In this document: one piece after another, positions 12,124 through 50,503 of the stretch | How positions within the stretch are numbered: the stretch's first letter is position 1 | How the letters are laid out: each line of letters starts with the position of its first letter | Made by a program: the position numbers and the translations under genes | Assembly: GCA_964472415.1 (NCBI GenBank) | Contig: CAYYLC010000003.1 | Span: 2,219 to 66,218 of the forward strand | Direction of reading: 5' to 3' | DNA length: 64,000 nucleotides | Source of the DNA: an uncultured Gammaproteobacteria bacterium | GTDB taxonomy: Bacteria; Patescibacteriota; Microgenomatia; Levybacterales; GWA1-39-11 | Notes under the pieces: generated by a model | The model's input: only the letters and a program-made list of their open reading frames with translations | Told to the model about the DNA's origin: nothing | Databases searched by the model: none

Positions 12124-12162
12124 CTATTTTATTGAAACCCTTTTTTTCCATGGTGTCAATAT

Positions 12163-12681: not shown

Positions 12682-12683
12682 AT

Positions 12684-13622: not shown

Positions 13623-13624
13623 AG

Positions 13625-21455: not shown

Positions 21456-22310
21456 ATGAATAAAAAAATTACTGTAGTATCTGTTCTGATTCTTGTGATA
21501 GTGGGGGTGGTGATTTGCATATTATTAAATTTGGAAACGGTTCGAGCACTTTCTCAAAAATCTGTAGAGATTGTAGAGGGGGCTATTGGGATGCGAGTGA
21601 ATACTTCTGGACCTTTAAGAAAGGAAGGTGATGATGCGGGATCAAATCTTACTGTGCAGGGAGTAATCAGAGAGACAAATCGTCGCAGGGTAGAGGCAGG
21701 TCTTCCTCTGCTTTCTGAGAATGTGTTGTTGGATCTTTCTGCTCAGAGAAAGGTTGATGATATGTTTAAGAGGCAATATTTTGAACATGATGCACCGACT
21801 GGAGAAAGCGCGGGAGATTTGGTAGTAGATGCGGGGTATGAATTTATAACAGTAGGTGAAAATCTTGCATTGGGAAATTATCAGAATGATATGATTCTTG
21901 TCCAAGCATGGATGGATAGTCCAGGACACAGGGAGAATATTTTGAAAAATTCCTATACAGAGATTGGAGTTGCGGTAGCGCGTGGGATGTTCGAGGGAAA
22001 AGAAACATGGCTTGCGGTGCAGCATTTTGCAAAGCCATTATCTGATTGTCCTGCAATTAATGCTAATCTTAAGTCTCAAATCGACTCTCATAATTCTAAA
22101 ATTGAGAGTATGAAATCTGATTTGGAACGCCGTAAGATTTATCTCTCAGAAAAACCTATAACTCAGGAGGAAGCAAGTGATTACAATAGGCAGGTCGATG
22201 AATTTAATGCGCTCGTAAATGAATATAATGCATTACTTTCTGAGACGCGAGATTTTGTTTCTCAATATAACTCACAAATACAGGATTTTAATAGTTGTGC
22301 AAAAGAATAG
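21456..22310 (+). CDS. membrane-anchored CAP/SCP (YkwD-like) domain protein with C-terminal coiled coil
   Basis: N-terminal TM helix. CAP signature WMDSPGHRENIL...EIGVAV. A coiled-coil tail. Confidence 0.65.
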   Translation: MNKKITVVSVLILVIVGVVICILLNLETVRALSQKSVEIVEGAIGMRVNTSGPLRKEGDDAGSNLTVQGVIRETNRRRVEAGLPLLSENVLLDLSAQRKVDDMFKRQYFEHDAPTGESAGDLVVDAGYEFITVGENLALGNYQNDMILVQAWMDSPGHRENILKNSYTEIGVAVARGMFEGKETWLAVQHFAKPLSDCPAINANLKSQIDSHNSKIESMKSDLERRKIYLSEKPITQEEASDYNRQVDEFNALVNEYNALLSETRDFVSQYNSQIQDFNSCAKE

Positions 22311-28867: not shown

Positions 28868-29821
28868 CTAGATTCTTTCGCACGTTATTTTTGGAAAGAA
28901 GAAAAAGTAGTGCTGCGTATATTCAAGATAGCAGACAGTTCTGCTGAATGGGAAGAATCCAAGAAATCTTTTCATGGTATAAGGGTTAATAGGTGTAGGG
29001 CTAGGAGGGGTTACAGAGGGGGTGGACGTTGGTGAAGGGTTTTCGGTTGGGGTTATTGTTGGTGTGCTGGTGGGAGTAGAAGTCGGTTGACTTGTTGTCG
29101 TTGGTACTATCGTCATAGTTGGGCTAGTAGTGGGTGTAGGCGTTTCTGTAGGGTTTGTAGGAGTTGAGCTTTCAGGATTTTCTGGGGTACTATTCGTATT
29201 TTGTGGATTTGATAGAGTGGGAGAAGAGTGTCTTACAAAGTCGTTTGCGTTGTTATCTGTGTCTTCTCCATTTCCAAGGTTATTATCTGTTCCAGATGGC
29301 GCCATGCTTTCTGAAGTAGATGTGTCGTGCGCTTTTCGTTCAATACTTCTATTTGAAATAGGGAGAGAGACTGTAACCTCTTCTCTTGTACTTGCTTCTC
29401 CGAATCCTACCAAATCAATAGTATTATTATTTTCATCTCTGAGAATTATGGAATTATTATCAGCGATATTTTGGTCAGTGTACGTGATGTCCGGTGTAGT
29501 CGTGTCGTCATAGTTTTCATGAGCGATCAGCATAAATCCATGTGGTTGAATAGTTCCGCTAAGGGTTGCGATAAGCTGCTCTTCAGCATCTATTGATTGA
29601 GTCTTTCTCATTACTTTCCATCCGGAAAGATCCATTTCATTTGTTGTGGGATTGTAGAGTTCTACAAATTCATCAGTGGTGGTGCTCCCTGCTGCTTGAA
29701 TTTCAGAGATCACAACATGGTTCGCAATAGCATAAGCGATATTTGGTGAAGTCGACTGAATGGAGGATATAATTAAAAGAATTATAAGAGGAGCGAGAGT
29801 AACACTGATTATTTTCCTCAT
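28868..29821 (-). CDS. secreted lamin-tail-domain (LTD) protein with T/P-rich tail
   Basis: Signal peptide. HVVISEIQAAGSTTTDEFVELYNPTTNEMDLSGWKV matches the LTD consensus. T/P/S-rich C-terminal region. Confidence 0.6.
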   Translation of the reverse strand: MRKIISVTLAPLIILLIISSIQSTSPNIAYAIANHVVISEIQAAGSTTTDEFVELYNPTTNEMDLSGWKVMRKTQSIDAEEQLIATLSGTIQPHGFMLIAHENYDDTTTPDITYTDQNIADNNSIILRDENNNTIDLVGFGEASTREEVTVSLPISNRSIERKAHDTSTSESMAPSGTDNNLGNGEDTDNNANDFVRHSSPTLSNPQNTNSTPENPESSTPTNPTETPTPTTSPTMTIVPTTTSQPTSTPTSTPTITPTENPSPTSTPSVTPPSPTPINPYTMKRFLGFFPFSRTVCYLEYTQHYFFFFPKITCERI

Positions 29822-37228: not shown

Positions 37229-38275
37229 ATGAAGAAGTTAATTCTTATAATAATTATCGCGTTGGTAGCCATTGCTGCTTTTGTATATCGGTGGCAGATG
37301 GATAATTTGACTACCGGTGTTCAGGAGTTTGCAGATAAGAATATTTCAGAAAGGATTGCTGATTTTCATCCGTTATCTATAGAATCGCTTAGGCGAGGAG
37401 AATATTTAGGGAGTGATATAGAAATAGAACAGGTTTTGCCTTCTGGTAGTAATTACTCCCGTTACATCACATCCTACAGTTCTGAGGGCCTCAAGATATA
37501 TGCTCTTTTGACGGTTCCCAACGGAAACGCGCCAGAAGGAGGTTTTCCTGTCGTTGTCTTTAATCACGGATATATCCCTCCTGCAGAATACGAAACTACT
37601 GAAAGATATATTGCGTATACAGATGGTTTTTCTAGAAATGGTTATGTGGTTTTCAGGTCAGACTATAGAGGTCATGGTAATTCTGAGGGTAGGGCAGAGG
37701 GCGGTTATGGAAGCAATGCGTATACGATAGATATACTCAATGCAGTAGCGAGTGTTAAAAAACTTGAATATATAAATCCAGAAAAAATTGGAATGTGGGG
37801 ACACAGTATGGGAGGTCATATAACGCTGCGTAACATGGTGGTAAATAAAGACGTCAAGGCCGGGGTTATATGGGCAGGAGTAGTCGTTTCCTATCCTGAC
37901 CTTCTGGAAAGATGGAGAAGGGGGAGTGTCAATTCGACTGGTACGCCGTCGCCATTTCCGACCAGATCGAATAGAGGAGGATGGAGAAATGGATTTATAG
38001 AGATATTTGGGAGTCCCGCAGATAATCCTACATTTTGGAGTTCCATTTCTTCAAATTCCTATCTAGGTGACATTTCGGGTCCTGTGCAGCTTCATCACGG
38101 AACGGCTGACTCATCTGTACCATTTGAATTCTCTGAAAAACTTTCTGAGCAGCTGGAGGCGGAGGGTAAAGAGGTTGAGCTATATATATACGAAGGCGAT
38201 GACCATAATTTGTCCGGGAATTTTTCGATTGCGATGCAGCGCTCTATAGAGTTTTTTGATAGATACCTCAAATAA
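37229..38275 (+). CDS. signal-anchored alpha/beta hydrolase (S9/dienelactone-hydrolase-like)
   Basis: Nucleophile elbow GHSMGGH and a catalytic His near the C-terminus (DDHN). Paralog of 42349..43464. Confidence 0.7.
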   Translation: MKKLILIIIIALVAIAAFVYRWQMDNLTTGVQEFADKNISERIADFHPLSIESLRRGEYLGSDIEIEQVLPSGSNYSRYITSYSSEGLKIYALLTVPNGNAPEGGFPVVVFNHGYIPPAEYETTERYIAYTDGFSRNGYVVFRSDYRGHGNSEGRAEGGYGSNAYTIDILNAVASVKKLEYINPEKIGMWGHSMGGHITLRNMVVNKDVKAGVIWAGVVVSYPDLLERWRRGSVNSTGTPSPFPTRSNRGGWRNGFIEIFGSPADNPTFWSSISSNSYLGDISGPVQLHHGTADSSVPFEFSEKLSEQLEAEGKEVELYIYEGDDHNLSGNFSIAMQRSIEFFDRYLK

Positions 38276-38336
38276 TAATTTCCTATAAGGTAGATATTTA
38301 TTTTTTCCATAATGAGCTAATTGTTCAATATTAAGC

Positions 38337-38365
38337 TTGCAAAGGGTCATAATATGTGATATATT
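38337..38365 (+). promoter_or_regulatory. candidate sigma70-type promoter upstream of SipW/TasA-like operon
   Basis: TTGCAA, then 17 nt, then TATATT. It lies about 150 nt upstream of the first gene, so it would imply a long 5' UTR. Confidence 0.3.
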
Positions 38366-38515
38366 ACAGGCCAATTCTGCCAACTGCCCATATTAGTTGG
38401 TTTTTAAAACCTTCTATTTAATAACTGCCCACGTTATTAAATGAAAAACTTAATCCGAAATTTAAATTTTAAGTCAGCAGCGTAAAGCGAGCTGGCTTTT
38501 TTTGTTTGAAAGGAG

Positions 38516-39061
38516 GTGAAGATAATGAAAAAAATATTAATTAGCGTATTTACGATTCTTGCAGTATCTGCTGCAACTTTCGGTGCAACTCAGGCTTTAT
38601 TTTCAGACGAAGAGACTAGTATTGGAAATACTTTTTCTGCAGGTACTCTTGATTTAACAATTGATGGTGTTAATGACAATGTTGTTAAATTTAATGCTTC
38701 AAATATGAGGCCTGGAAGTCAGCCACATGGTGCATACACTCTTAAAAACGAGGGTAGTATAAACGGGAAACTTAATCTAAGCGATATCAAAGTTTACGGT
38801 GGAACTTTAGGTGAGGTTGTTAACGTAGCTTTGTTTGTAGATAGAGATGGAAATGGATGGTGGAGCACAGGAGATGTTTCTATTTATAGTGGAAAGGTTT
38901 CTGATATTCCGTCAAGCATCACTTTCAACGAGCAGTTGAATGCAGGTGCATCAACAAAAATAGTTACAATATTCAATTGGTGGTCAACACCAAATGATAA
39001 CGATTATCAGGGTGAATCAATGATGGTTGATTTTACCTTCGAATTGTTGCAAAACTTATGA
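38516..39061 (+). CDS. TasA/camelysin-like secreted protein with SipW-cognate signal peptide
   Basis: GATQALFSDEETSIGNTFSAGTLDL matches the SipW-cognate motif (TasA/CalY: ..AxFSDxExS.GNTF.AGTLDL). RBS AGGAGGTGAAG. Confidence 0.65.
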   Translation: MKIMKKILISVFTILAVSAATFGATQALFSDEETSIGNTFSAGTLDLTIDGVNDNVVKFNASNMRPGSQPHGAYTLKNEGSINGKLNLSDIKVYGGTLGEVVNVALFVDRDGNGWWSTGDVSIYSGKVSDIPSSITFNEQLNAGASTKIVTIFNWWSTPNDNDYQGESMMVDFTFELLQNL

Positions 39062-39606
39062 AAAAAATAGGATTTATAAAAAACACAATTTATTCGATAG
39101 GGCTATCGCTTCTGATTGTCATTGCGGTGGTTCTTTTTGCGGGAAAATTCGGGATAGGTGGAGTTAGGGCATTGGTTGTCCAGTCGGGTTCTATGGAGCC
39201 TACGATCCACACAAAGAGTGTCGTGATAACCGTGCCTAGTAGTTTTTACGGTGAAAATGACGTAATTACATTCAAGCAATCCGGCCGTGAGAATGTGTTG
39301 GTTACCCACAGAATCGAAAGCACCATCACAACTCCAAATGGAAATGAATTCGTCACGAAAGGTGACGCGAATGAAGAAGCAGATGGCGAAACAATTCCTG
39401 CAGGGGACGTTATAGGAAAAGTTGTCTTTACGATTCCATTTATAGGTGCCCTAATATCATTTGCTCAGACACAGATAGGATTTCTGATACTGGTCATCAT
39501 CCCTGCTGTTGCGATCGTCTATAGCGAAATATTGAATATTAAAAATCAGATAGTGAGGTTTTATGGAGATAGAAAGGGTAGGCGTCTAGTGAGGCCATTA
39601 GAATAA
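39058..39606 (+). CDS. sipW: signal peptidase I, SipW (archaeal/ER-type S26B) family
   Basis: Catalytic Ser box VVQSGSMEPT. N-terminal and C-terminal TM helices. Length 182 aa. Overlaps the upstream stop (ATGA). Confidence 0.8.
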   Translation: MKKIGFIKNTIYSIGLSLLIVIAVVLFAGKFGIGGVRALVVQSGSMEPTIHTKSVVITVPSSFYGENDVITFKQSGRENVLVTHRIESTITTPNGNEFVTKGDANEEADGETIPAGDVIGKVVFTIPFIGALISFAQTQIGFLILVIIPAVAIVYSEILNIKNQIVRFYGDRKGRRLVRPLE

Positions 39607-39608
39607 TT

Positions 39609-40469
39609 ATGAAAGAAAGAATTTTAAAACTGATACTGCTTTTGATTTTACCCTTGGTTCCATTTACGGGTATATCTAACGCGCTGCTATATGACACGGA
39701 AAGTTCTATGAACAATAGTTTTTCTGCAGCAAGTCTAGACATCACTCTCTTGGATGATGGCGGTGATGAGATTGATGGTCTGCTTTTTGACAAAAACAAA
39801 TTAAAAAGTAATGAAGAGCTAATCCAGAAAATCAAAGTCTCAAATTCCGGCACACTGGATTTTTATTACCATCCAGAATTTGAACTAAAAAATGGAAATC
39901 TAGATGTTTGTGAAGAGCTATCATTGAAAGCCTCGAAAGAAGGTAGCGAGGTCTATGAAGGTTCGCTGAAAGACTTTAATCTCGCAACTATGTCAGCGCA
40001 GATCACAAATAGCATTGACGAGTGGGAGTTTGCGCTTACCCATGAGAATAGTGGTGAGAGTCTACAAGGAGAAATTTGCGAATTCAATATCGCATTTCTG
40101 GCATACCAAAACATCGATAATACTGGATTTTCCGATACAGACAAAGTAGGAAGTAAAGTAGGAATTGCATATGAGCCAGTACTAACAGCATATCACAACT
40201 CTTCATCCCACAAATTCATCTTTACGCTATCTGGCCTTACGAATTTTACGGGGTTTGATTATAGCCTGATCTACGATACAGACACGATAACAGGCTTTGC
40301 AAGCGGGTCCGCATCATTAAGTGGCGAGACCAGCAAGGTAACTGAGATAGATTTGGGAACGGAGTCATATGGTGTACTTACTCCACAAATAAATCCGCAT
40401 AATTTCAACCTAAATATCAATCTTGTTGATATAGATGGTGATGCACTTACGCTTTCCGAGCAATTGTAG
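39609..40469 (+). CDS. second SipW-cognate secreted protein
   Basis: Signal peptide followed by ALLYDTESSMNNSFSAASLDI, the same cognate motif. Confidence 0.55.
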   Translation: MKERILKLILLLILPLVPFTGISNALLYDTESSMNNSFSAASLDITLLDDGGDEIDGLLFDKNKLKSNEELIQKIKVSNSGTLDFYYHPEFELKNGNLDVCEELSLKASKEGSEVYEGSLKDFNLATMSAQITNSIDEWEFALTHENSGESLQGEICEFNIAFLAYQNIDNTGFSDTDKVGSKVGIAYEPVLTAYHNSSSHKFIFTLSGLTNFTGFDYSLIYDTDTITGFASGSASLSGETSKVTEIDLGTESYGVLTPQINPHNFNLNINLVDIDGDALTLSEQL

Positions 40470-40474
40470 CTACA

Positions 40475-41407
40475 ATGAAAAATTTCCTAGTTTCGATCAT
40501 CTGCCTCATCATTTTTTTGGGTTTTGGCAGCTTTTCATATGCATATGATCTAGATGTCCAGTGTGATGACACTAGGTGTAATCTTTCATCTCGCGATCCG
40601 ATCTTTAAAGGTGATGACATGTGGACTCCTGGAAAATCTGTAGAAAAAAGTGTCGGTATCAAAAATACTGGAGAAAGCGAAAAGGAAATCTATCTCAGGA
40701 TAAAGACCAACGAATCTACAGGAGAGCTTGATGAGCATATGTTAATTAGTCTCATGCAGCAAGGAGCGGGAAGTCCTATCTGGACAGGGACATTGAAAGA
40801 GCTGATTGAAGACGAAACAGTGCTGATCGAGGATTTTTCCAAGGACGAACAAATCGAACTTATAATTTCTGCGCAAATGGATAGCGCAGCATCAAATGAG
40901 CTCCAGGGTGGATCTTCAGTATTTGATTTCGGATTCGGATTTGAGGGGGATTTGTCTGATGATAACGGGAGCGAGGAAGATTCAGATGAAAACGATTCTA
41001 ATTCAAATTCTAACGAAGATGATAGTGTGCAGGGTTCCATAGGGCAAATCCTTGATGGCGTTAATACTTTTATATTTGGCTCTCAACCACAAGCCTTAGA
41101 GCAACAGGGAGACGTTGCTGGGGAAAGTTCTGACGAAAAGAGTGACAAATCAGATATTATGGGGATTTCTGATGAATGTTTAGACAATAATATTTGGGTA
41201 GTTTTTCTTGCATTTCAAATTATTGGAGGAGGTTTGTATTTCTTGAAAAAGCTTACTATGAAGATTTCTATATTTGTCAATGGAATCGTTGCGGGAGTAG
41301 TTTCTCTGTATTTCTATTTCAGCTTGTGCTTTCTATGGCCTATACTAATTTCTCTCGGGATTTTCGTCTTTTGGCTCTTCGTAGCAAGAAGGAAATTGGT
41401 ATCGTAG
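40475..41407 (+). CDS. secreted acidic protein with C-terminal membrane anchor (TasA-like beta region)
   Basis: Signal peptide. An IKNTGESEKEIYL beta-sandwich-like segment paralleling the 38516 gene. A D/E/S-rich linker. Two or three C-terminal TM helices. Confidence 0.45.
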   Translation: MKNFLVSIICLIIFLGFGSFSYAYDLDVQCDDTRCNLSSRDPIFKGDDMWTPGKSVEKSVGIKNTGESEKEIYLRIKTNESTGELDEHMLISLMQQGAGSPIWTGTLKELIEDETVLIEDFSKDEQIELIISAQMDSAASNELQGGSSVFDFGFGFEGDLSDDNGSEEDSDENDSNSNSNEDDSVQGSIGQILDGVNTFIFGSQPQALEQQGDVAGESSDEKSDKSDIMGISDECLDNNIWVVFLAFQIIGGGLYFLKKLTMKISIFVNGIVAGVVSLYFYFSLCFLWPILISLGIFVFWLFVARRKLVS

Positions 41408-41514
41408 TTTGTTAGGTATTATTTCCTGGTTCTTCTAGATGGAGATAATAATTGCGACAACGCCTAATAACATGCTTTTAGTATAGTAGAAAATTTATGA
41501 AAAATACAAGCATG

Positions 41515-42273
41515 TTATTTGAATAGATTTTCGCTTCTTAGATATTCTATTATCCCTAGGGCAAGTCCTTCTGCCGAAGTGAGGGGATCACCTACGATGA
41601 GTGTTCTGTCTGATGCATTTGTGAGAAATCCAGTTTCAAGAATTGCAGCAGTTGTCATGGGGTGTATCGCATGCCTAAACCTCCAAAACGAAAATGCATA
41701 GTAGCCGCGCATATTTGTAGTAATTTTAGGATCTCGTGGTAGCAGAGTAGATTCACCGTAATATTTTTCTATATAGTCTGCGAGCTTCTCTGCTTTTCCA
41801 GTGTAATCACGCCAAGGAGCCGCGATTTTATATCCAGATTTAGAAGGATCCTCGGATCCGTCTGCATGTATTGAAATAAACACATCTGCCCAGTATGATT
41901 CAGGAATCGTAGCGGGGAGGATATCTACTATGATGCCATTTTTTTCAAGGATATCTTTTGTGAGTATAGCTATTGTATGGTTCACTTCCCATTCGCTTTT
42001 TCCACCGCCTGAGGCGCCGGTATTGCCCCTGAGTTTTTCAAGTTCATCTGGTACTTCTTCTAATTTCCAATGTCCGACCTGTAGGCCAACTTTTGGAGGT
42101 CCATCAGGCCGTTTCCAGTGTTCAAGGAGCCCAAACTTTCCGAGATGAGATGAATTTTCATTTTCTCCTATGTATGCAGGCGCGGCAAATATTTGCAGAA
42201 ACTTCTCTCGCATCACGAGCGTTATAATAGGAGTTATAAGAAGAAGTATGATAAATAGTATGTTCTTTTGCAT
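41515..42273 (-). CDS. N-acetylmuramoyl-L-alanine amidase (Amidase_3 family), signal-anchored
   Basis: ISIHADG and AAILETGFLTNASDRTLI match Amidase_3 metal-binding and Glu motifs. Confidence 0.7.
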   Translation of the reverse strand: MQKNILFIILLLITPIITLVMREKFLQIFAAPAYIGENENSSHLGKFGLLEHWKRPDGPPKVGLQVGHWKLEEVPDELEKLRGNTGASGGGKSEWEVNHTIAILTKDILEKNGIIVDILPATIPESYWADVFISIHADGSEDPSKSGYKIAAPWRDYTGKAEKLADYIEKYYGESTLLPRDPKITTNMRGYYAFSFWRFRHAIHPMTTAAILETGFLTNASDRTLIVGDPLTSAEGLALGIIEYLRSENLFK

Positions 42274-42348: not shown

Positions 42349-43464
42349 ATGGAAGATCAGGAAGACTTGAATCCATCTCATTACCATAGTATGCCACAGG
42401 CGAAACATAGCCTTTCGAAAGTATTCGGAGGAGTTGTTGTAGTCATTTTTATGATTGTTACTTGTGTAGCGGGATATTTTTTAGTGCAAAGAGGTAGTAT
42501 TGCACCATCTCCTATAATAGAGGATAATTCCTCTATTCAGACTCAGCTTGAAAATTCTGAGCCATTTTTATTTCAAGATATGACTATTCCGTATTTACGA
42601 GAGAAGGCGTATGAAGGTGCGCTGACGAGTTTGGAAGAAGTTTCCTCAAATTCTGACTATATGTCATATCGTACTACATATATTTCGGATGGTCTAACGA
42701 TTTATGCACAAATCACGAAACCTGCAAATGCAATGCCAGAAGGTGGATTTCCGGCAATTATATTTGTTCATGGATATATTCCTCCTGCTCGTTATCAGAC
42801 TTTTTCAAATTACGCCTCATATGTAGATGCACTTGCGAGAAGTGGTTTTGTGGTTTTCAAGATAGATCTTCGCGGGCATGGAGAATCTGAAGGAGAGCCG
42901 AGTGGGGCATACTATTCAGGAGATTATGTTGTGGATATTCTCAATGCGCGCGCAGCGCTGAGAGTTACTGAATTTGTAAATCCTGAAAAAATCGGATTGT
43001 GGGGACACAGTATGGCGGGGAATGTCGGACTCAGAAGTTTCGTGGTAGCACGTGATATGCCGGCAATATCTCTTTGGAGTGGTGCAGTATATACATATGA
43101 AGATTTGGGAAAGTATGGCATTAGTGATGCGAGCTATCAACCACCTGATATGAATTCTGAGAGACAAAAGAGGCGTGAGATGCTTAGGGAAATGTATGGA
43201 GAGTTTGATAAAAATAGTGAATTTTGGAGCCAGGTAGTACCTATAAATTATCTCGATGATGTTCGTGGAGCAATTCAGCTGAATCACGCAGTGGATGATG
43301 ATGTTGTAAATAGCGGCTACAGTAGAGATTTGAATATATTACTTGATAATACTGATATTGTGCATGAGTTCAACGAATATTCATCTGGTGGACATAATCT
43401 CAGCGGGAGTACATTTACTCGTGCCATGAATGACACAATAAAGTTTTTTCATGAGCATTTGTAG
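42349..43464 (+). CDS. signal-anchored alpha/beta hydrolase (paralog of 37229..38275)
   Basis: GHSMAGN nucleophile elbow. Roughly half of residues identical to the 37229 paralog over the catalytic domain. Confidence 0.7.
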   Translation: MEDQEDLNPSHYHSMPQAKHSLSKVFGGVVVVIFMIVTCVAGYFLVQRGSIAPSPIIEDNSSIQTQLENSEPFLFQDMTIPYLREKAYEGALTSLEEVSSNSDYMSYRTTYISDGLTIYAQITKPANAMPEGGFPAIIFVHGYIPPARYQTFSNYASYVDALARSGFVVFKIDLRGHGESEGEPSGAYYSGDYVVDILNARAALRVTEFVNPEKIGLWGHSMAGNVGLRSFVVARDMPAISLWSGAVYTYEDLGKYGISDASYQPPDMNSERQKRREMLREMYGEFDKNSEFWSQVVPINYLDDVRGAIQLNHAVDDDVVNSGYSRDLNILLDNTDIVHEFNEYSSGGHNLSGSTFTRAMNDTIKFFHEHL

Positions 43465-44039
43465 TGTATGATAATAGTATGAGAAAAATTCTTTTTATCG
43501 TAATGATAATAGTGGCAGCAGGGATTGTCGGATGGATCGTTTCACCTGAATTGCCTGGGATAGGAGATAATCAGGCAAATCTTTCCGATAGTGACGGGTC
43601 AATTAATTCTTTTGAAGAGTGTATTGCGGCAGGTTTTCCGGTCCAGGAAAGCCATCCACAGCGGTGCATAGTTTCTGACGAAAAGTCATTTACTGAAGAA
43701 ATTTCTGAGGAAGCAGAACGCGATATTATAGTTTCAGCTCCTCTGATTGATGCGAGGGTGACTTCTCCGTTTCAGATTTCCGGAAGTGCTACAGGGAGTT
43801 GGTATTTTGAGGGGAATTTTAGCGCAGAGTTATATGATAACGAAGGAAATGTTATTGCGACGGCAGTCTTAACTGCGCAAGAGGATTGGATGACAGAAGG
43901 GATGGTTCCTTTCCAAGGTGAGATTGAGTTTGAAGAGCAATATATAGGGAGTAGTGGAGATTTGATTTTATTGAGCGCAAATCCTTCAGGAATTTCTGAG
44001 AATCAGCGGGAAATTTCCATCTCAGTCCGTTTTGAATAA
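43464..44039 (+). CDS. Gmad2 (immunoglobulin-like) domain protein, signal-anchored
   Basis: VTSPFQISGSATGSWYFEGNFSAELYDNEGNVIA matches the Gmad2 domain pattern. Confidence 0.5.
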   Translation: MYDNSMRKILFIVMIIVAAGIVGWIVSPELPGIGDNQANLSDSDGSINSFEECIAAGFPVQESHPQRCIVSDEKSFTEEISEEAERDIIVSAPLIDARVTSPFQISGSATGSWYFEGNFSAELYDNEGNVIATAVLTAQEDWMTEGMVPFQGEIEFEEQYIGSSGDLILLSANPSGISENQREISISVRFE

Positions 44040-44329
44040 CTATCTTTTCAATTTCTTACAATAAATTTGTTCGGTTATCATACAAGAGCGATAAGATGGT
44101 TTTTATGATAACGCAAGCGATACGAATACCACTCAACAGATATCAAGCAATCGAAAAAGTAGAAGGAGAAGGGAAGACTGCACTAGATGCAATTTATCAA
44201 ATTGGGTATGTGAAGCCGTTATCACTACAGAGAGTAGCAAAAAGCTTTTGGAGAGTATTAACCGCACGGGTCGAATAAAAAATAGTGAATATTGCAGGTT
44301 ACAATTATAATATTTACGATGATGTTACA

Positions 44330-45001
44330 ATGCAGGGAATGAATCATAAAATCCTTATTGTTGAGGATGACACAAACATTCGGGATTATTTAGTTGAGGC
44401 TTTTGAAGAAGCTAACTATAGTACATCTGGGACTGGTGATGGGATAGAGGCTTTAAAGAAAATCCGCGAGGAAAATATAGATTTAGTAATTCTTGATTTA
44501 GGAATAGAAAATATTTCCGGCGAAACAGTGTGTATAGAAGCGAAAAAAGCTAAACCAAATCTTCCAATAATTATACTTACTGCCAAAAATACGAGCAAGG
44601 ATATCGTATACGGGCTTGATATCGGGGCTGATGACTATATCTCAAAACCCTTTGATACTGATGAGCTCTTAGCTCGGGTTCGGGTTCGGCTGAAACAACA
44701 GGGAAGTGACGTTTTGCAAATTGATGATTTGACGCTCAATACTTCAACATTAGAGGTGATGAGGGAAAGCAAAAAAATCCCGCTTACTGCAAAAGAATTT
44801 AAGCTCCTTGAGTATCTTATGATAAACAGTGGTGTAGTTTTGAGTAGGGAAACGATTCTTGACCATATCTGGCTTTATTCTCCGGATATTGAAACGCGAG
44901 TGGTAGATGTTTATATCGGATATCTCAGAAAAAAAATAGATGACGGGTTTGAAAAGAAGCTGATACAGTCTGTTCGAGGATTTGGATACACCCTTAAGTA
45001 A
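44330..45001 (+). CDS. OmpR-family two-component response regulator
   Basis: Receiver KILIVEDD...DLVILDLG and a winged-helix C-terminus VDVYIGYLRKKID. Start taken at an internal Met of the ORF 44285..45001. Confidence 0.8.
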   Translation: MQGMNHKILIVEDDTNIRDYLVEAFEEANYSTSGTGDGIEALKKIREENIDLVILDLGIENISGETVCIEAKKAKPNLPIIILTAKNTSKDIVYGLDIGADDYISKPFDTDELLARVRVRLKQQGSDVLQIDDLTLNTSTLEVMRESKKIPLTAKEFKLLEYLMINSGVVLSRETILDHIWLYSPDIETRVVDVYIGYLRKKIDDGFEKKLIQSVRGFGYTLK

Positions 45002-46299: not shown

Positions 46300-47535
46300 G
46301 TGGCATATGTAGTGCGCGATAAAATCCAATTTCTCTCTGAGGCGAGCAAGATCCTTTCTTCAACCCTTGATTATAATGTGACCTTGGTGAGTGTAGCAAA
46401 GCTTGTGGTTGAGGGAATTGCTGATTTTTGCATTATCGATATTGCGGAAGGTGAAAAAATGGAGCGGGTTGTAGTAAGGACTTCTCGAAAATCAGATCAA
46501 AGGCTTGCAAATAAAATGTTTAATTTTCAACCCGACCCGAAAAATAAGTTTGCTATTTATGACGCTGCAAACACTGGTTCATCAATTCTTATTGAGAAGG
46601 TTACGAAAAAATGGCTCAAAACTATCTCACGGATACAAGAAGAGCAGGAGATAGTAGAAAAACTAGAACTTAAATCATTTATTTTTACTCCACTTATCTC
46701 TCGAGGAAAAATTATCGGGGTACTTACTGTTGGTTCTAGTAGGCAGGGATTCTCCTACACTGTAGATGACGTACTTTTCGTGGATGAACTTGCTGGGAGA
46801 GCCGCACTTGCAGTAGATAATTCTCGATTATTTTCTGAAGCACAACAAGCGATTCAAACTCGAGATGAGTTTATGTCTATTGCTTCGCATGAGCTGAAAA
46901 CTCCTCTTACGAGCATTCTTCTTACTCTCCAATTTGCGCACCGGAGACTTTTGAAGCAGGATGCACATAAGAACGTCCTGAATGCAATAGAAACCGGAAT
47001 CTTACAAACTCGAAGACTTTCAGGACTTATGAATGATCTTCTCAATATTTCGGTTATATCTACTGGGAGATTAAAAATTCAAAAGGAAGAAACAGAGCTG
47101 ATAGGGCTTTTAAATGATGTAATTTTGTGGTTTGAGCTGCAGGCAAAAAATAGTGGAGTAAAAATTATTTTTAAAATAAAACGGAAGAAGATCTGGGGAT
47201 TTTGGGATAAGGTGCGACTTGAAGAAGTATTCTCAAATTTAATTTCCAATGCTATTAAGTATGGGAACAATAAACCAGTAACAATAGAAGTGTCACTCAA
47301 GGAAAATATGGCAGTTATTAAAATAAGTGATGAGGGAATTGGAATTGAAGCTGAGGAGAGAGAGAAAATATTCGGATTATTTCGAAGAACTGTAGCAGCA
47401 CGTGAATTTAAAGGAATGGGTGTAGGACTTTATATAAGCTATCAGGTCGTGAAGGCTCATAAGGGAACGATGTCTGTCGAGAGTACGCCAGGAAAAGGGT
47501 CAATGTTTGTCGTGAAGCTCCCTCTCCGATTTTAA
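46300..47535 (+). CDS. cytoplasmic GAF-domain sensor histidine kinase
   Basis: H-box ASHELKTPLTS. N, G1 and G2 boxes (GMGVGLYIS). An N-terminal GAF-like region. No TM helix. Confidence 0.8.
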   Translation: MAYVVRDKIQFLSEASKILSSTLDYNVTLVSVAKLVVEGIADFCIIDIAEGEKMERVVVRTSRKSDQRLANKMFNFQPDPKNKFAIYDAANTGSSILIEKVTKKWLKTISRIQEEQEIVEKLELKSFIFTPLISRGKIIGVLTVGSSRQGFSYTVDDVLFVDELAGRAALAVDNSRLFSEAQQAIQTRDEFMSIASHELKTPLTSILLTLQFAHRRLLKQDAHKNVLNAIETGILQTRRLSGLMNDLLNISVISTGRLKIQKEETELIGLLNDVILWFELQAKNSGVKIIFKIKRKKIWGFWDKVRLEEVFSNLISNAIKYGNNKPVTIEVSLKENMAVIKISDEGIGIEAEEREKIFGLFRRTVAAREFKGMGVGLYISYQVVKAHKGTMSVESTPGKGSMFVVKLPLRF

Positions 47536-48325: not shown

Positions 48326-50503
48326 TTAATTTTTTGCAATTGTGAGTCTTCCTGTATGTTGCAGTTTTGTCCATGCGATTATTTCTCCTCTGAGTGCATT
48401 GAGAATAGCTGTGAAGAGTACAATATACATAATTTGCGTATAGGGAAATCTTAAAAATACAAAATAAAACAAAGGAGTTTTCTTGTGCGGTGATAAGATA
48501 GATGCTACTAATATTACACTGAATTGAATAAGAAGATAGAGCCCGAGAAAAATGAGCGTAAGTGTTCGTTCTCCGATGAGAAGATTGTAAATAATAAGAA
48601 TATCGACAAGTGGACTGAGCAGAATTGATGGGATCTGTAAAAATGCATAGCGCGGGAATAAGATGATTCCGAAGAAGCCATATTTTTTATTGAATAATGC
48701 GTCTTTATGTTTGAAGATAACTTGTAGATTTCCAAAATTCCATCTCAATCTTTGGGTGAATAATTGATTAAGTGAGGTGGGAGCTTCTGTATACGCGACA
48801 GCTTTATCTGCGTATTTCACTCTATATCCTTTCTTAATGATGCGGAGGCTTAAGTCATAATCTTCAGCATGGGTTTGCTTATTGAATCTTCCCGCTTTTA
48901 TAATAGCACTTTTTCTCCATGCACCAAAAGCACCTGGGACAATCGGTACTACGCCAAATATATCACTTATCCTTTTTTCAATACTCTGTGCGACTATGTA
49001 TTCTATATTTTGAATTCTAGTAAGGAAGTTATTAGGATTTCCCACTAAAAGATGTCCTGCAACAGCGCCAATTTCTTTATCGGTAAAATACTGAACAATT
49101 TTATTTATAGAACTAGTTCGAAGTCTGGTATCAGCATCAATACAGACGAGAATCTTTCCTTTTGCATGCTTTAATCCGAGATTGAGTGCTAAATGCTTTC
49201 CACTTTTTTGTGTGTTTAAGATTGTTACTTTTTTATTTTTTATCTTTTGTGCCTCTTGAAGACTGTTATCACTACTTCCATTATTTATTACAATAATCTC
49301 TATATTCTTATAGCTATTTCTGAGTACGGATCGTATGGTTGCTTTTATGGACTTTTCTTCGTTATGCATCGGGATAATTATAGATATAAGACATTTGTAT
49401 TTCCCTTTCTTGTTAGTGGTCTTTCTTTTCAGATTTATTTTACCACTGAGTGCGAGCGTGAGTATGAAAAAAGTATGAATAAGAACAACTACAAACCCAA
49501 TAGCAAATCCTTGCCTCAGTAAATTTGGAGCTTGTTTATAGGTATCATATGCAAAAAATGCCATACCTGCAAAGAGTTTATCTGCATAGCTTGCCTCGGC
49601 AGAAACAGGGAGATTATTTTGCCTTGCAAGCGCTGAAATTGTCGTAAATTCATAACCTCGCATTTTATAAAATTTTATAATTTCTGGAAGTGATTCTATG
49701 GTTGTCGTCCTTTCCCCTCCAGCGTCATGAAAGAGGATGACAACGGTCCTTACATGAGAAGTAGTGGCGCGTTTTATAACCTCTTCCTTAGTAGTGTTTT
49801 CGAGCCAGTCCAACGAGTCTACTGTTGGGGCAGAAATCGTAAACCCTCTTTTGTATGCTTCTCCGATGTATTGGAGAGAGTTGTATGATAGCCTATCTTC
49901 GACTCCTACATATGGAATTCGAAAAATGAGTGGCTTATACCCAAAGTAGTGAACAAATATTTTTTCTGTAAAGTCTAACTCTTTTACGAATTCTAATTGT
50001 GATAATTCTTCTTCATTTGGATTCTCAAAATGTGAGAAAGTGTGAGTTCCAATATCAGATCCTTGATCAATGATTTCCCGGACAATGTCGGGATATTTGT
50101 ATGTTTGTAATCCTGTTACAAAAAATGTCCCTGGAACATTTTCTTGGGATAGAACTTCCAGGATTTTTGGAGTAAATTCTGGATCAGGACCATCATCAAA
50201 TGAGAGAACAACCTGTTTTTTTTCTTCACCGAATCGTTTAATATACTCTTCACCATAAACATTTTCTATTGTGAGAAATGTTCCTTGGTTCAAGACAGGG
50301 CGTTCCTGAGCATTAATTTCTTCAATTGCAGCATCTACCTGTGTGTCAATAAGTGTATTTTTTGCACCAAATGGGGACGTAATATATGAAACGACCGAAA
50401 ATGTTGCAAACAAAGTTATAAAAAATATTAAAACGATGCTAAAAAGTTTAATTTTTTTCCAACGCTTCCCTGTGTCATAGAATATAGGTTTTCTTTTTTT
50501 CAT
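48326..50503 (-). CDS. polysaccharide deacetylase (NodB) fused to processive family-2 glycosyltransferase (PgaC/IcaA-like poly-beta-1,6-GlcNAc synthase type)
   Basis: NodB motif VVLSFDDGPD. GT2 motifs ISIIIPMHNEE and CIDADTRL. Processive-synthase QxxRW (TQRLRWNFG). N-terminal and C-terminal TM helices. Confidence 0.8.
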   Translation of the reverse strand: MKKRKPIFYDTGKRWKKIKLFSIVLIFFITLFATFSVVSYITSPFGAKNTLIDTQVDAAIEEINAQERPVLNQGTFLTIENVYGEEYIKRFGEEKKQVVLSFDDGPDPEFTPKILEVLSQENVPGTFFVTGLQTYKYPDIVREIIDQGSDIGTHTFSHFENPNEEELSQLEFVKELDFTEKIFVHYFGYKPLIFRIPYVGVEDRLSYNSLQYIGEAYKRGFTISAPTVDSLDWLENTTKEEVIKRATTSHVRTVVILFHDAGGERTTTIESLPEIIKFYKMRGYEFTTISALARQNNLPVSAEASYADKLFAGMAFFAYDTYKQAPNLLRQGFAIGFVVVLIHTFFILTLALSGKINLKRKTTNKKGKYKCLISIIIPMHNEEKSIKATIRSVLRNSYKNIEIIVINNGSSDNSLQEAQKIKNKKVTILNTQKSGKHLALNLGLKHAKGKILVCIDADTRLRTSSINKIVQYFTDKEIGAVAGHLLVGNPNNFLTRIQNIEYIVAQSIEKRISDIFGVVPIVPGAFGAWRKSAIIKAGRFNKQTHAEDYDLSLRIIKKGYRVKYADKAVAYTEAPTSLNQLFTQRLRWNFGNLQVIFKHKDALFNKKYGFFGIILFPRYAFLQIPSILLSPLVDILIIYNLLIGERTLTLIFLGLYLLIQFSVILVASILSPHKKTPLFYFVFLRFPYTQIMYIVLFTAILNALRGEIIAWTKLQHTGRLTIAKN

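What the first reader, a model, noticed from the sequence alone, without database searches (positions are those of the whole stretch)
38337..41407. SipW signal-peptidase operon with two TasA/camelysin-like cognate substrates and an acidic membrane-anchored partner
Four co-directional, tightly packed genes, with an ATGA overlap between genes 1 and 2. Gene 1 is a TasA/camelysin-like protein whose signal region carries the SipW-cognate motif (FSDEETSIGNTFSAGTLDL). Gene 2 is an S26B SipW-type peptidase (SGSMEP). Gene 3 is a second cognate substrate (YDTESSMNNSFSAASLDI). Gene 4 is a secreted protein with a D/E/S-rich spacer and a C-terminal multi-helix anchor. In Bacillus the tapA-sipW-tasA module builds biofilm fibres. 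Finding the full dedicated-peptidase/substrate arrangement plus a candidate anchor in what looks like a reduced-genome, possibly episymbiotic bacterium suggests a dedicated surface-fibre or matrix system. The anchor protein and the second substrate have no obvious characterised counterparts.
Basis: partly seen in the sequence, partly recalled or inferred. Interest (0 to 1): 0.72.

Follow-up and report, generated by a model that had tools for sequence, protein, structure and literature searches.

The report
TasA-type anchored fibre operon, CPR bacterium
A four-gene operon in a candidate-phyla-radiation bacterium encodes a dedicated archaeal-type signal peptidase and three related TasA-like proteins (a fibre subunit, a two-domain minor or tip subunit, and a membrane-anchored base), so it looks like a bacterial version of a known kind of surface fibre rather than a new kind of system.

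Summary
Four tightly packed + strand genes lie at 38525-41407, with the ATGA overlap and every quoted motif present.

- **g1** is a true TasA homologue. It scores above the Pfam PF12389 cut-off, and its family profile matches the TasA structures 5OF1/8AUR at E 3e-6.
- **g2** is an archaeal/ER-type (SipW-type) signal peptidase, not a LepB-type one.
- **g3 and g4** are not orphans. Profile-profile comparison shows both share the TasA-like core with g1 (96-97% probability).
- **g3** keeps the N-terminal donor-strand motif and adds a second beta-sandwich domain.
- **g4** lacks exactly the donor-strand segment. It carries a disordered acidic spacer and three C-terminal membrane helices.

This component logic matches the haloarchaeal Tat-fimbriae model (tip, core, signal peptidase, and a three-helix anchor called TafF). 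I therefore read the operon as a Sec/SipW-dependent, donor-strand-linked fibre anchored in the membrane.

The module recurs in seven distinct loci whose flanks differ. The g4 family has 467 cluster representatives and no Pfam or NCBIfam model. The only named relatives are Levybacteria and Patescibacteria.

Verdict: a new member of a known kind, of moderate interest.

The parts
38337..38365 (+). Promoter-like site: -35 TTGCAA, 17-nt spacer, TG-extended -10 TATATT.
   Evidence: Consensus scan. The hexamers are conserved in L002 and L003. Function is inferred.
38366..38524 (+). Conserved 5' leader with three hairpins. Two are followed by U-runs; the last (38471-38500 plus U7) sits directly before the Shine-Dalgarno sequence. 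It may be an attenuator or a regulator-binding leader.
   Evidence: The alignment with L002 and L003 has 84% column identity, higher than the g1 protein identity of 43-49%. RNAalifold and the single-sequence fold give z -2.4. No Rfam family matches.
38525..39061 (+). g1: TasA/camelysin-family protein of 178 aa, the putative major fibre subunit. Signal peptide is residues 1-24 (..ATQA|LF). The putative donor strand is residues 25-36 (38597-32), followed by FSAGTLDL and the jellyroll core, ending in the YQGESMMVDFTFELLQ motif.
   Evidence: PF12389 scores 51.6 bits against a gathering cut-off of 22.5. The family profile A5 matches TasA 5OF1/5OF2/8AUR at E 3.3e-6 over the whole domain. The donor-strand assignment is by analogy with TasA residues 28-38 (PMC9674648).
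39058..39606 (+). g2: SipW-type (archaeal/ER-type, S26B) signal peptidase I of 182 aa. It has an N-terminal membrane segment (4-41), a C-terminal hydrophobic region (115-162), and putative catalytic residues S45 (SGSMEP), H84 (VTHR) and D103 (KGDAN).
   Evidence: TIGR02228 scores 96.1 bits against a cut-off of 51.85. The Bacillus SipW equivalog NF046067 scores 100 bits against 190. The bacterial-type TIGR02227 scores only 23 against 47. Catalytic residues are assigned by spacing relative to SipW S47/H87/D106, which I recall from Tjalsma et al. 2000.
39609..40469 (+). g3: two-domain secreted protein of 286 aa, the putative minor, tip or initiator subunit. Signal peptide is residues 1-25 (..ISNA|LL). 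The donor-strand-like segment is residues 26-38 (39684-39722). A TasA-like beta-sandwich spans about 39-170, and a second beta-sandwich spans about 175-286 (40131-40466).
   Evidence: AlphaFold2 model with pLDDT 86.4; residues 20-38 are disordered and two beta domains follow. hhalign against the g1 family gives 96.6%, E 6e-10, and against the g4 family 96.3%. The family member P0017 hits PF12389 at E 1.3e-8. The C-terminal domain recurs directly upstream of g4-like genes in L010 and L013.
40475..41407 (+). g4: membrane-anchored TasA-like protein of 310 aa, the putative fibre base or terminator.
- Sec-type signal peptide: residues 1-23 (..SYA|YD).
- N-domain: residues 24-157 (40544-40945), with a conserved C30/C35 pair and no donor-strand segment.
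- Disordered D/S/E/N-rich spacer: residues 158-236 (40946-41182).
- Three membrane helices: residues 237-310 (41183-41404).
   Evidence: AlphaFold2 model with pLDDT 80.7: N-domain above 90, spacer below 50, three confident helices. hhalign against the g1 family gives 97.3%, E 2.6e-11, aligning g1 54-178 with g4 42-160. Foldseek returns TasA 5OF1 (probability 1.00) and AbpA 7UEG (0.98) at E 3.6e-3. The family has 467 representatives at E<=1e-3 with the same architecture.
41466..41519 (.). Inverted repeat (15-nt arms, 93% complementary, 24-nt loop) between the convergent g4 and Amidase_3 genes. It may be a shared transcription stop.
   Evidence: the repeat finder. The consensus terminator scan does not call it. 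Function is inferred.

Best explanation
The operon encodes a Sec-exported, SipW-processed surface fibre of the TasA superfamily that stays attached to the cell membrane.

**Shown by the evidence**
- g1 is a TasA homologue.
- g2 is an archaeal/ER-type signal peptidase I.
- g3 and g4 share the TasA-like core with g1.
- g1 and g3 carry the conserved segment right after the cleavage site that forms the donor strand in TasA.
- g4 lacks that segment. It ends in a disordered acidic spacer and three membrane helices.
- The four genes travel together as a unit across divergent genomes.

**Inferred mechanism**
1. Precursors are held at the membrane by their signal peptides.
2. Cleavage by g2 frees the N-terminal donor strand, which lies directly after the cleavage site.
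3. g3 starts or caps the fibre by giving its strand to the first g1. Its extra C-terminal domain sits at the far end and may act as an adhesin.
4. g1 subunits polymerise head-to-tail by donor-strand complementation, with new subunits added at the cell-proximal end.
5. The strand of the last g1 enters the groove of g4. Because g4 has no strand of its own, this ends growth and ties the fibre to the membrane.
6. The roughly 80-residue acidic spacer of g4 (replaced by FN3 domains in relatives) would span the cell wall.

In a CPR bacterium such a fibre would most plausibly serve attachment to surfaces, hosts or neighbouring cells.
For: - **g1 is TasA-like.** PF12389 scores above the gathering cut-off. 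The g1 family profile matches TasA 5OF1/8AUR at E 3.3e-6 across the full domain.
- **g2 is SipW-type.** TIGR02228 scores above its cut-off, the LepB-type model scores below its cut-off, and the SGSMEP, THR and GDAN motifs have SipW-like spacing.
- **The three non-peptidase proteins are paralogues.** hhalign gives 97.3% for g1 vs g4, 96.6% for g1 vs g3 and 96.3% for g4 vs g3. Plain HMM cross-hits agree.
- **g3 model.** The donor-strand region (20-38) is unstructured and two beta-sandwiches follow. The best Foldseek hits are pilin-pilin fusions (CfaB-CfaB, CfaE-CfaB), the basal pilin PilB and the biofilm scaffold RbmA.
- **g4 model.** It shows a confident beta domain, a disordered spacer and three membrane helices. 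TasA and AbpA are the highest-probability structural hits.
- **g4 lacks the donor strand.** From the cleavage site to the conserved PG there are 28 residues in g4 against 38 in g1, so the mature g4 starts at the 'DLxV' strand (sequence).
- **Conserved linkage.** TasA-like, SipW, g3-type C-domain and g4-like genes occur together in the window/L001, L002/L007, L003-L006, L008, L009, L010 and L013. Flanks differ in L008, L009, L010 and L013.
- **Coexistence with a housekeeping peptidase.** In L010 a LepB-type S26 gene sits beside the cluster, so the SipW-type enzyme is an additional one there.
- **Published precedent.** TasA's donor strand is mature residues 28-38 and TapA supplies the first strand (PMC9674648, PMC10151520). 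In the Tafi model TafC is the tip, TafA the core, TafD the peptidase and TafF the three-helix anchor that receives the last donor strand (PMC11821415, PMC12337348).
Against: - No polymer, cleavage event or cell-surface location has been observed. The roles of g1, g3 and g4 are assigned from sequence logic and analogy.
- Multimer prediction could not be run, so strand insertion into g4 is untested.
- Structure searches with g3 returned generic Ig-like or pilin-like sandwiches, and TasA was not in the top 50.
- The g4 structural matches to TasA and AbpA have marginal E-values (3.6e-3).
- g3 and g4 do not reach any curated family cut-off. g1 misses the TIGR04088 cut-off (15.7 against 19).
- In L010 the g3 counterpart keeps the C-terminal domain rather than a clear TasA-like N-domain. 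The conserved function of g3 may therefore lie in that C-domain, which my model does not explain.
- Whether g2 or a housekeeping peptidase processes g4 is unknown.
Confidence: 0.62

Rival explanations
1. The operon makes a released matrix fibre, as in Bacillus. g1, with or without g3, forms TasA-like fibres that are shed into an extracellular matrix. g4 is not a structural base. It would act as a membrane-bound nucleator, assembly platform or chaperone-like factor that transiently binds subunits, the role proposed for TapA.
For: The operon composition resembles tapA-sipW-tasA (PMC9674648, PMC10151520). A chitin-synthase-like GT2 fused to a polysaccharide deacetylase lies about 7 kb downstream, which would fit matrix production. 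g4's TasA-like domain could bind donor strands only transiently.
Against: TapA nucleates by donating a strand, whereas g4 lacks the donor segment and g3 has it. A three-helix anchor plus a wall-length spacer, or FN3 stalks in relatives, is conserved across 467 cluster representatives. That points to permanent tethering.
Confidence: 0.17
2. The proteins are surface proteins that do not form filaments. g1, g3 and g4 would be monomeric or lattice-forming envelope proteins (adhesins, wall-associated beta-sandwich proteins, or a 'camelysin' cell-surface protease) that share a secretion and processing route through g2.
Against: g1 has no HEXXH or other metal-site motif and only one His (sequence). 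The segment most conserved in the g1 family is the donor-strand region plus the final strand, which in TasA forms the protomer interface (PMC10151520). All structurally solved TasA-superfamily members are donor-strand polymers (bioRxiv 10.64898/2026.01.04.697558).
Confidence: 0.12
3. g4 is an accessory subunit of the signal peptidase, comparable to TafG/DUF5305 or to subunits of the eukaryotic signal peptidase complex. It would help g2 recognise or cleave its substrates.
For: g4 is a multi-helix membrane protein encoded beside the peptidase. Accessory proteins to signal peptidase I are reported in Tafi and AbpX loci (PMC12337348; bioRxiv 10.64898/2026.01.04.697558).
Against: g4 and 79 relatives give no DUF5305 or other accessory-family hit. 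Its ectodomain is homologous to the fibre subunit itself. In L013 the g4-like gene is separated from the peptidase by other genes, while it stays next to the g3-type domain.
Confidence: 0.05

Closest known systems
Haloarchaeal Tat-fimbriae (Tafi: TafA/E pilins, TafC tip, TafD signal peptidase, TafF anchor; Haloarcula hispanica, Natrinema sp. J7-2)
   Same: The component logic is the same: pilin-like subunits with N-terminal donor strands, a larger tip or initiator subunit, a dedicated signal peptidase in the locus, and an anchor with a Sec signal peptide, a pilin-like N-domain and three C-terminal membrane helices. That anchor is modelled to accept the last donor strand (PMC11821415, PMC12337348). 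g4 has exactly this architecture.
   Different: This locus is bacterial (CPR) rather than haloarchaeal. All its subunits have Sec-type signal peptides, not Tat. It has no TafB regulator and no TafG/DUF5305 accessory gene. g2 has two hydrophobic regions, whereas TafD has four helices. The roles in Tafi itself are partly modelled and not proven.
Bacillus subtilis tapA-sipW-tasA biofilm fibre operon
   Same: g1 is a sequence homologue of TasA. g2 is of the same peptidase type as SipW. The donor-strand motif directly follows the cleavage site. An accessory protein that carries a donor-strand-like N-terminus (g3 here, TapA there) is encoded in the operon.
   Different: The gene order differs. g3 gives no hit to the TapA family and has a TasA-like domain plus a second sandwich. 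Bacillus has no membrane-anchored TasA-like protein such as g4. The g1 mature protein is much smaller (about 154 aa against about 234 aa). g2 scores below the Bacillus SipW equivalog cut-off (100 against 190).
AbpX/AbpA-type loci of the TasA superfamily (Pyrodictium, Pyrobaculum; AbpX-like clusters in Bacillota and Chloroflexota)
   Same: These loci combine a TIGR02228-type signal peptidase I, a jellyroll subunit that polymerises by donor-strand complementation, predicted tip and minor subunits, and envelope anchors (PMC9245690; bioRxiv 10.64898/2026.01.04.697558). AbpA 7UEG is a top structural match of g4.
   Different: The bacterial AbpX clusters reported use SLH or LPXTG wall anchors and a ten-helix peptidase. 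Here the anchor is a three-helix membrane protein, the peptidase is small, and no LPXTG motif is present in g1, g3 or g4. No calcium-site analysis was done.
Chaperone-usher pili of Gram-negative bacteria (analogy only)
   Same: The shared features are donor-strand complementation, a tip-first order, growth at the base and a dedicated terminator subunit. The g3 model's best Foldseek hits are CfaB/CfaE pilin fusions.
   Different: There is no chaperone, usher or outer membrane here, and no sequence relationship. The donor-strand polarity and assembly machinery differ.

Membership tests
TasA/camelysin family (Pfam PF12389, Peptidase_M73) | HMM score above the gathering cut-off (22.5 bits) | tested here: met
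   g1 scores 51.6 bits, E 1.4e-13. The g1 family profile also matches the TasA structures 5OF1/5OF2/8AUR at E 3.3e-6 over profile positions 31-207.
TasA/camelysin family (Pfam PF12389, Peptidase_M73) | The same HMM criterion applied to g3 and g4 | tested here: not met
   g3 scores 9.9 bits, E 0.85, and g4 gives no hit. Only 3 of 14 g3-family members hit PF12389 (best 1.3e-8, P0017), and none of 80 g4-family members does. Profile-profile comparison places both in the same superfamily: 96.6% for g3 and 97.3% for g4 against the g1 family.
TasA superfamily donor-strand filaments | An N-terminal donor-strand segment directly after the signal-peptide cleavage site (TasA residues 28-38 followed by F-A-S-G-T-L-D-L) | tested here: met
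   g1 has LFSDEETSIGNT-FSAGTLDL and g3 has LLYDTESSMNNS-FSAASLDI. These segments are invariant or nearly so in alignments A5 and A3. g4 lacks the segment and its mature N-terminus starts at YDLDV.
TasA superfamily donor-strand filaments | Jellyroll or beta-sandwich core structurally similar to TasA/AbpA | tested here: inconclusive
   For the g4 model, TasA 5OF1 (probability 1.00) and AbpA 7UEG (0.98) rank 3-4, but at E 3.6e-3 and TM 0.22-0.36. For the g3 model, only generic pilin or Ig-like sandwiches appear and TasA is not in the top 50. No structure was predicted for g1.
TasA superfamily donor-strand filaments | Actual polymerisation by donor-strand complementation | not testable with these tools
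   No multimer prediction or experiment was available.
SipW / archaeal-ER-type signal peptidase I (S26B; TIGR02228) | HMM score above the curated cut-off (51.85 bits) | tested here: met
   g2 scores 96.1 bits, E 1.9e-27.
SipW / archaeal-ER-type signal peptidase I (S26B; TIGR02228) | Catalytic Ser, His and Asp instead of the Ser-Lys dyad, with membrane segments flanking the domain | tested here: met
   g2 has S45 in SGSMEP, H84 in VTHR and D103 in KGDAN. The spacings are 39 and 19 residues, against 40 and 19 in SipW S47/H87/D106 (reference positions recalled from Tjalsma et al. 2000, not re-checked). Hydrophobic segments lie at 4-41 and 115-162.
Bacillus SipW equivalog (NF046067) | Score above the equivalog cut-off (190 bits) | tested here: not met
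   g2 scores 100.2 bits. It is the same peptidase type but not an orthologue-level match.
LepB/SipS-type bacterial signal peptidase I (TIGR02227) | Score above the cut-off (47 bits) | tested here: not met
   g2 scores 23.1 bits. A true LepB-type gene beside the related cluster in L010 has the GASMEP...GDNR..S.DSR pattern.
SipW-cognate signal peptide domain (TIGR04088) | Score above the cut-off (19 bits) | tested here: not met
   g1 scores 15.7 bits, E 0.012, and g3 gives no hit. Only 1 of 14 g3-family members hits, at E 0.029. The motif is visibly present but falls below the threshold.
TapA/YqxM (as a candidate identity for g3) | Sequence match to curated TapA/YqxM models, or structural match to TapA 6HQC | tested here: not met
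TafF-type fimbrial membrane anchor (Tafi) | Sec signal peptide, pilin-like N-terminal domain and three C-terminal membrane helices | tested here: met
   g4 has a signal peptide ending SYA|YD, a TasA-like domain at residues 24-157 and helices at 240-257, 262-283 and 288-309. The TafF description comes from PMC11821415 and PMC12337348.
TafF-type fimbrial membrane anchor (Tafi) | Sequence homology to Haloarcula hispanica TafF | not tested
BsaA family SipW-dependent matrix protein (TIGR04090) | Score above the cut-off (60 bits) | tested here: not met
   g4 scores 19.2 bits, E 8e-4, over residues 44-81 only. Nine of 80 family members give similar weak hits.
Signal-peptidase accessory protein (DUF5305/TafG) | Pfam match to DUF5305 | tested here: not met
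   g4 and 79 relatives give no such hit at E<=0.1.
Sortase-dependent (LPXTG) pilins | C-terminal LPXTG sorting signal | tested here: not met
   No LPXTG motif is present in g1, g3 or g4 (sequences). Sortase genes occur near the related clusters in L008 and L010 but not in this window's cluster.

The most novel reading that the evidence does not exclude
g4 would define a large, unnamed family of membrane-anchored, donor-strand-less TasA-like 'terminator/anchor' proteins. The family has at least 467 cluster representatives, no Pfam or NCBIfam model, and its few named members are all Patescibacteria. With g1, g2 and g3 it would build a previously undescribed Sec/SipW-dependent, cell-anchored, tip-first pilus that is the bacterial counterpart of archaeal Tafi. 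CPR cells would use this pilus to attach to hosts or partners, alongside their known type IV pili. The unusually conserved three-hairpin leader upstream of g1 would be a new cis-regulatory RNA that controls it.
Probability: 0.4. Interest if true: 0.6.

Novelty: new member of a known kind. Interest (0 to 1): 0.42.

Why it matters
CPR/Patescibacteria are thought to live attached to other cells, but few of their surface structures are known apart from type IV pili. This locus gives a concrete, testable candidate for a second kind of appendage: a chaperone-free, donor-strand-linked fibre with a built-in membrane anchor.

It also shows that the component set proposed for haloarchaeal Tat-fimbriae (tip, core, peptidase, three-helix anchor) exists in bacteria with Sec signals. 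That supports the view that the TasA superfamily is an ancient cross-domain fibre system.

The g3 and g4 families are currently annotated only as hypothetical proteins. In the public record for this contig the g4 gene is called 48 codons short, which removes its signal peptide. Naming these families would improve annotation of many metagenome-assembled genomes.

Tried and rejected
- **Word-indexed homologue searches.** They found only 4 relatives for g4 and 5 for g3, which wrongly suggested orphan genes. The exhaustive HMMER search found 467 relatives of g4.
- **Sequence searches of the PDB.** The g3 and g4 profiles found nothing relevant.
- **First profile-profile comparison.** The shallow alignments A1 vs A2 were not significant (probability 2%). 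The comparison became significant only with the 80-sequence g4 alignment.
- **Genome-contig scan.** It returned only two loci, both titled 'uncultured Gammaproteobacteria bacterium'. I treat that label as unreliable, because the named protein relatives are Levybacteria/Patescibacteria and the loci carry sortase and monoderm-type genes.
- **Exact look-up of the full-length g4.** It failed because the public gene call starts at M49.
- **Search for a LepB-type peptidase or further TasA-like paralogues in the 64-kb window.** None was found. Whether g2 is this genome's only signal peptidase therefore stays open.
- **Rfam search of the conserved leader.** It gave only chance-level hits.
- **Rejected reading: camelysin-type protease.** g1 has no metal-binding motif.
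- **Rejected reading: g4 as a peptidase accessory subunit.** There is no DUF5305 hit, and the ectodomain is homologous to the fibre subunit.
- **Rejected reading: the flanking alpha/beta-hydrolase and Amidase_3 genes belong to the module.** They are absent from the flanks in L008, L009, L010 and L013.

Full report
**1. What is in the sequence**

Four ORFs lie head-to-tail on the + strand.
- g1 is listed from a GTG at 38516. The ATG at 38525 follows a strong Shine-Dalgarno sequence (AAGGAGGTGA) and gives a 178-aa protein ending at 39061.
- g2 runs 39058-39606 (182 aa).
- g3 runs 39609-40469 (286 aa).
- g4 runs 40475-41407 (310 aa).

The g1/g2 ATGA overlap is real, and the 2-nt and 5-nt gaps between the later genes are real.

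A 15-nt inverted repeat lies between g4 and the convergent Amidase_3 gene.

The window is ordinary chromosomal DNA. It carries SHMT, an RseP-type M50 protease, YchF, DnaX, a class II tRNA synthetase, PRPP synthetase and one tRNA-Cys. It also encodes many secreted proteins.

**2. Identity of the four proteins**

*g1.* It scores 51.6 bits against Pfam PF12389 (TasA/camelysin), where the gathering cut-off is 22.5. A profile built from g1 and five orthologues taken from related loci matches the solved TasA structures 5OF1/5OF2/8AUR at E 3.3e-6. The match runs across the whole domain and includes the terminal N-x-YQG-x-S-x-x-F-x-F motif.

*g2.* It passes the curated cut-off of TIGR02228, the archaeal/ER-type signal peptidase I model (96 bits against 51.85). 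It fails the bacterial LepB-type model (23 against 47) and falls below the Bacillus SipW equivalog cut-off (100 against 190). It has SGSMEP (S45), VTHR (H84) and KGDAN (D103) with SipW-like spacing, and hydrophobic segments on both sides of the catalytic domain. g2 is therefore a SipW-type enzyme but not an orthologue-level SipW.

*g3.* It has no significant curated-family hit, but three lines of evidence tie it to TasA.
- Its family of 14 sequences includes P0017, which hits PF12389 at E 1.3e-8.
- Its profile matches the g1 family at 96.6% probability, E 6e-10.
- Plain HMM cross-searches hit in both directions.

The AlphaFold2 model (pLDDT 86.4) shows residues 20-38 unstructured, followed by two beta-sandwich domains. 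Structure searches returned tandem-sandwich proteins: CfaB-CfaB and CfaE-CfaB pilin fusions, the basal pilin PilB, RbmA, macroglobulin-type domains and transglutaminase barrels. TasA itself did not appear. The fold test for g3 is therefore inconclusive, and the case rests on sequence profiles.

*g4.* The word-indexed search found only four relatives. An exhaustive HMMER search found 467 cluster representatives at E<=1e-3 and 153 at E<=1e-10. They share one architecture:
- a Sec-type signal peptide ending ..A|[A/Y/S]-D-L-x-V-x-C-x4-C;
- a conserved domain containing W-x-P-G and N-x-YQ-x5-FDL-x-x-GF;
- a variable spacer;
- two or three C-terminal membrane helices.

In 16 of 80 relatives the spacer is an FN3 domain instead of low-complexity acidic sequence. 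No Pfam or NCBIfam model covers the family. Nine of 80 members give weak, sub-threshold hits to the BsaA family of SipW-dependent matrix proteins.

The g4 family profile matches the g1 family at 97.3% probability, E 2.6e-11, aligning g1 54-178 with g4 42-160. It matches the g3 family at 96.3%. The AlphaFold2 model (pLDDT 80.7) has a confident beta domain at residues 20-160, a disordered stretch at 160-235 and three confident helices. Its highest-probability Foldseek hits are TasA 5OF1 (1.00) and the archaeal bundling pilin AbpA 7UEG (0.98), at a marginal E of 3.6e-3. The Sulfolobus thread subunit and PapA/FimA-type pilins rank lower.

All three non-peptidase genes are therefore paralogues with a TasA-like core.

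**3. The donor-strand argument**

In TasA fibres the first eleven residues of the mature protein (28-38) form the donor strand that completes the next subunit. TapA is thought to supply the first strand (PMC9674648, PMC10151520).

The so-called SipW-cognate motif in g1 (LFSDEETSIGNT-FSAGTLDL) and g3 (LLYDTESSMNNS-FSAASLDI) is that same segment. It is the best-conserved part of both families. In the g3 monomer model it is disordered, as expected for a strand that pairs with another subunit.

g4 has 28 residues between its cleavage site and the conserved PG, against 38 in g1. Its mature N-terminus begins at YDLDV, the position of the 'LDL' strand. What is missing is therefore just the donor segment. 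This is a reading of the sequences, not a structural demonstration.

**4. Conservation of the module**

The set TasA-like (one or two copies), SipW-type, g3 and g4 recurs in several loci.
- L001 is the source contig (ENA ERZ27247346).
- L002/L007 has a g4 homologue at 72% identity.
- L003-L006 have g4 homologues at 40% identity.
- L008 has a g4 homologue at 30% identity and two TasA-like genes.
- L009 lies on a 432-kb contig.

In L008 and L009 the flanking genes are unrelated to those in the window, so the neighbouring hydrolase and amidase genes are not part of the module.

Two much more distant g4-family members are also linked to the same partners.
- In L010 the order is sortase, TasA-like, SipW-type, an 865-aa FN3/LTD protein, g4-like, and then a LepB-type peptidase.
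- In L013 a g3-type C-terminal fragment precedes the g4-like gene. An M73-like protein, an S24/S26-like peptidase and an LTD protein follow.

The last 100 residues of the 865-aa L010 protein match the C-terminal domain of g3 at 37 bits. The gene directly upstream of g4 therefore always ends with this domain, while its remainder can be a large adhesin-like protein. L010 also shows that a SipW-type enzyme can coexist with a housekeeping LepB in such a genome. Whether that is true for this genome cannot be seen in 64 kb.

**5. Organism**

The only named relatives are HRN96390.1 and HRN96391.1, an adjacent g3-like and g4-like pair from Candidatus Levybacteria, and MGI5828197.1 from a 'Patescibacteria group bacterium'. 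The two GTDB-representative MAG records carry the title 'uncultured Gammaproteobacteria bacterium'. I consider that a labelling problem. The CPR assignment is supported but not proven for this contig.

**6. Mechanism proposed**

Shown: the homologies, the architectures and the conserved gene linkage.

Inferred:
1. Precursors are tethered to the membrane by their signal peptides.
2. g2 cleaves right next to the donor strand and so releases it for pairing.
3. g3 caps or starts the fibre by donating its strand to the first g1, and displays its extra C-terminal domain distally.
4. g1 polymerises head-to-tail, with growth at the membrane end.
5. g4 accepts the last strand, cannot donate one, and so ends growth and anchors the fibre.
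6. g4's spacer crosses the wall.

This is the model published for haloarchaeal Tat-fimbriae, where TafC is the tip, TafE the adapter, TafA the core and TafD the peptidase. The anchor, TafF, has a Sec signal, a pilin-like N-domain and three C-terminal helices (PMC11821415, PMC12337348). That model is itself largely based on AlphaFold predictions.

**7. Comparison with what is known, and novelty**

PF12389 proteins in Patescibacteria were already noted in a GTDB-wide survey (PMC9245690). TasA-superfamily loci with a signal peptidase I, tip and minor subunits, and envelope anchors are described as common in archaea, Bacillota and Chloroflexota (bioRxiv 10.64898/2026.01.04.697558).

I found no paper that describes this locus type in CPR or names the g3 or g4 families. 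It is a new member of a known kind. The added points are a large unnamed anchor family, a conserved g3 C-terminal domain of unknown role, and a bacterial Sec-dependent counterpart of the Tafi layout.

**8. Weak points**

- There is no experimental or multimer-model evidence for polymerisation or anchoring.
- The fold search for g3 is inconclusive, and the E-values for g4 are marginal.
- Homology between g4 and TafF is untested.
- The conserved g3 C-domain is unexplained.
- The taxonomy rests on three named relatives.

**9. Side observation: a conserved leader**

The 250-nt leader upstream of g1 is more conserved between the window, L002 and L003 (84% column identity) than the g1 protein is (43-49%).

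It folds into three conserved hairpins. Two are followed by U-runs, and the last sits directly before the ribosome-binding site. One stem shows compensatory changes. An AACUGCCCA motif appears in two of the loops. No Rfam family matches. This may be an attenuator or a regulator-binding leader. I followed it up only partly.

Noticed in passing
window 38276-38524: The leader upstream of g1 is more conserved at the DNA level (84% column identity with L002 and L003) than the g1 protein is (43-49%). It has three conserved hairpins. Two are followed by U-runs, and one (38471-38500 plus U7) sits immediately before the Shine-Dalgarno sequence. The motif AACUGCCCA appears in two loops, and one stem shows compensatory changes. 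No Rfam family matches. It may be an attenuator or a regulator-binding leader.
   Followed up: partly
window 40475-40618 (L001 10001): The public gene call for g4 (P0001, 262 aa) starts at M49 and so omits the signal peptide and the conserved N-terminal Cys hairpin. Orthologues and a JGI call (P0166, 310 aa) support the long form. Similarly, P0011 fuses the C-terminus of a SipW-type gene to a g3-like gene, which is probably a gene-calling artefact.
   Followed up: yes
L007 and L008 (records CAYVFE010000002.1, CAZOHC010000007.1): The MAG records that carry the closest relatives of this cluster are titled 'uncultured Gammaproteobacteria bacterium'. However, the named protein relatives are Levybacteria/Patescibacteria, and the loci carry sortase-like and other monoderm-type genes. 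The taxon label is probably wrong.
   Followed up: partly
window 48326-50503 (-): A 725-aa protein fuses a chitin-synthase-like GT2 glycosyltransferase to a polysaccharide deacetylase domain (precomputed Pfam). It could be an exopolysaccharide (PNAG-like) synthase. It lies about 7 kb downstream of the fibre operon, beyond a response regulator (44285-45001) and a GAF-containing histidine kinase (46300-47535).
   Followed up: no
window 37229-38275 (+), 42349-43464 (+), 41515-42273 (-), 43464-44039 (+): Two paralogous membrane-tethered or secreted alpha/beta-hydrolases (S9/S15-like), an Amidase_3 cell-wall amidase and a Gmad2 protein flank the operon. This arrangement is syntenic in L002 and L003 but absent around the module in L008, L009, L010 and L013.
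   Followed up: partly
window 1409-2488, 4307-5824, 10366-14470, 21456-22310, 28868-29821: The window is unusually rich in predicted secreted or surface proteins: two CAP-domain proteins, an FN3 protein, a CARDB protein, two adjacent VWA proteins and an LTD (lamin-tail) protein. LTD and FN3 domains also occur in the large tip-like proteins of related fibre clusters (L010, L013).
   Followed up: no
window 1-64000: GC skew is positive in every 2-kb bin and the cumulative skew rises steadily to 5.27, whichever way the genes point. The whole window seems to lie on one replichore, with the + strand as the leading strand.
   Followed up: no
L013 4825-5844: A 340-aa protein with a HemolysinCabind (RTX calcium-binding) annotation contains a g4-type N-terminal domain (A4 profile positions 41-168, E 5.7e-22). 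It shows that this domain also occurs outside the three-helix anchor architecture.
   Followed up: no
window 20277-21422 (-): A 381-aa protein matches Pfam MATCAP (microtubule-associated tyrosine carboxypeptidase, formerly a DUF) at E 8e-29. This is an odd family to find in a CPR-type genome.
   Followed up: no
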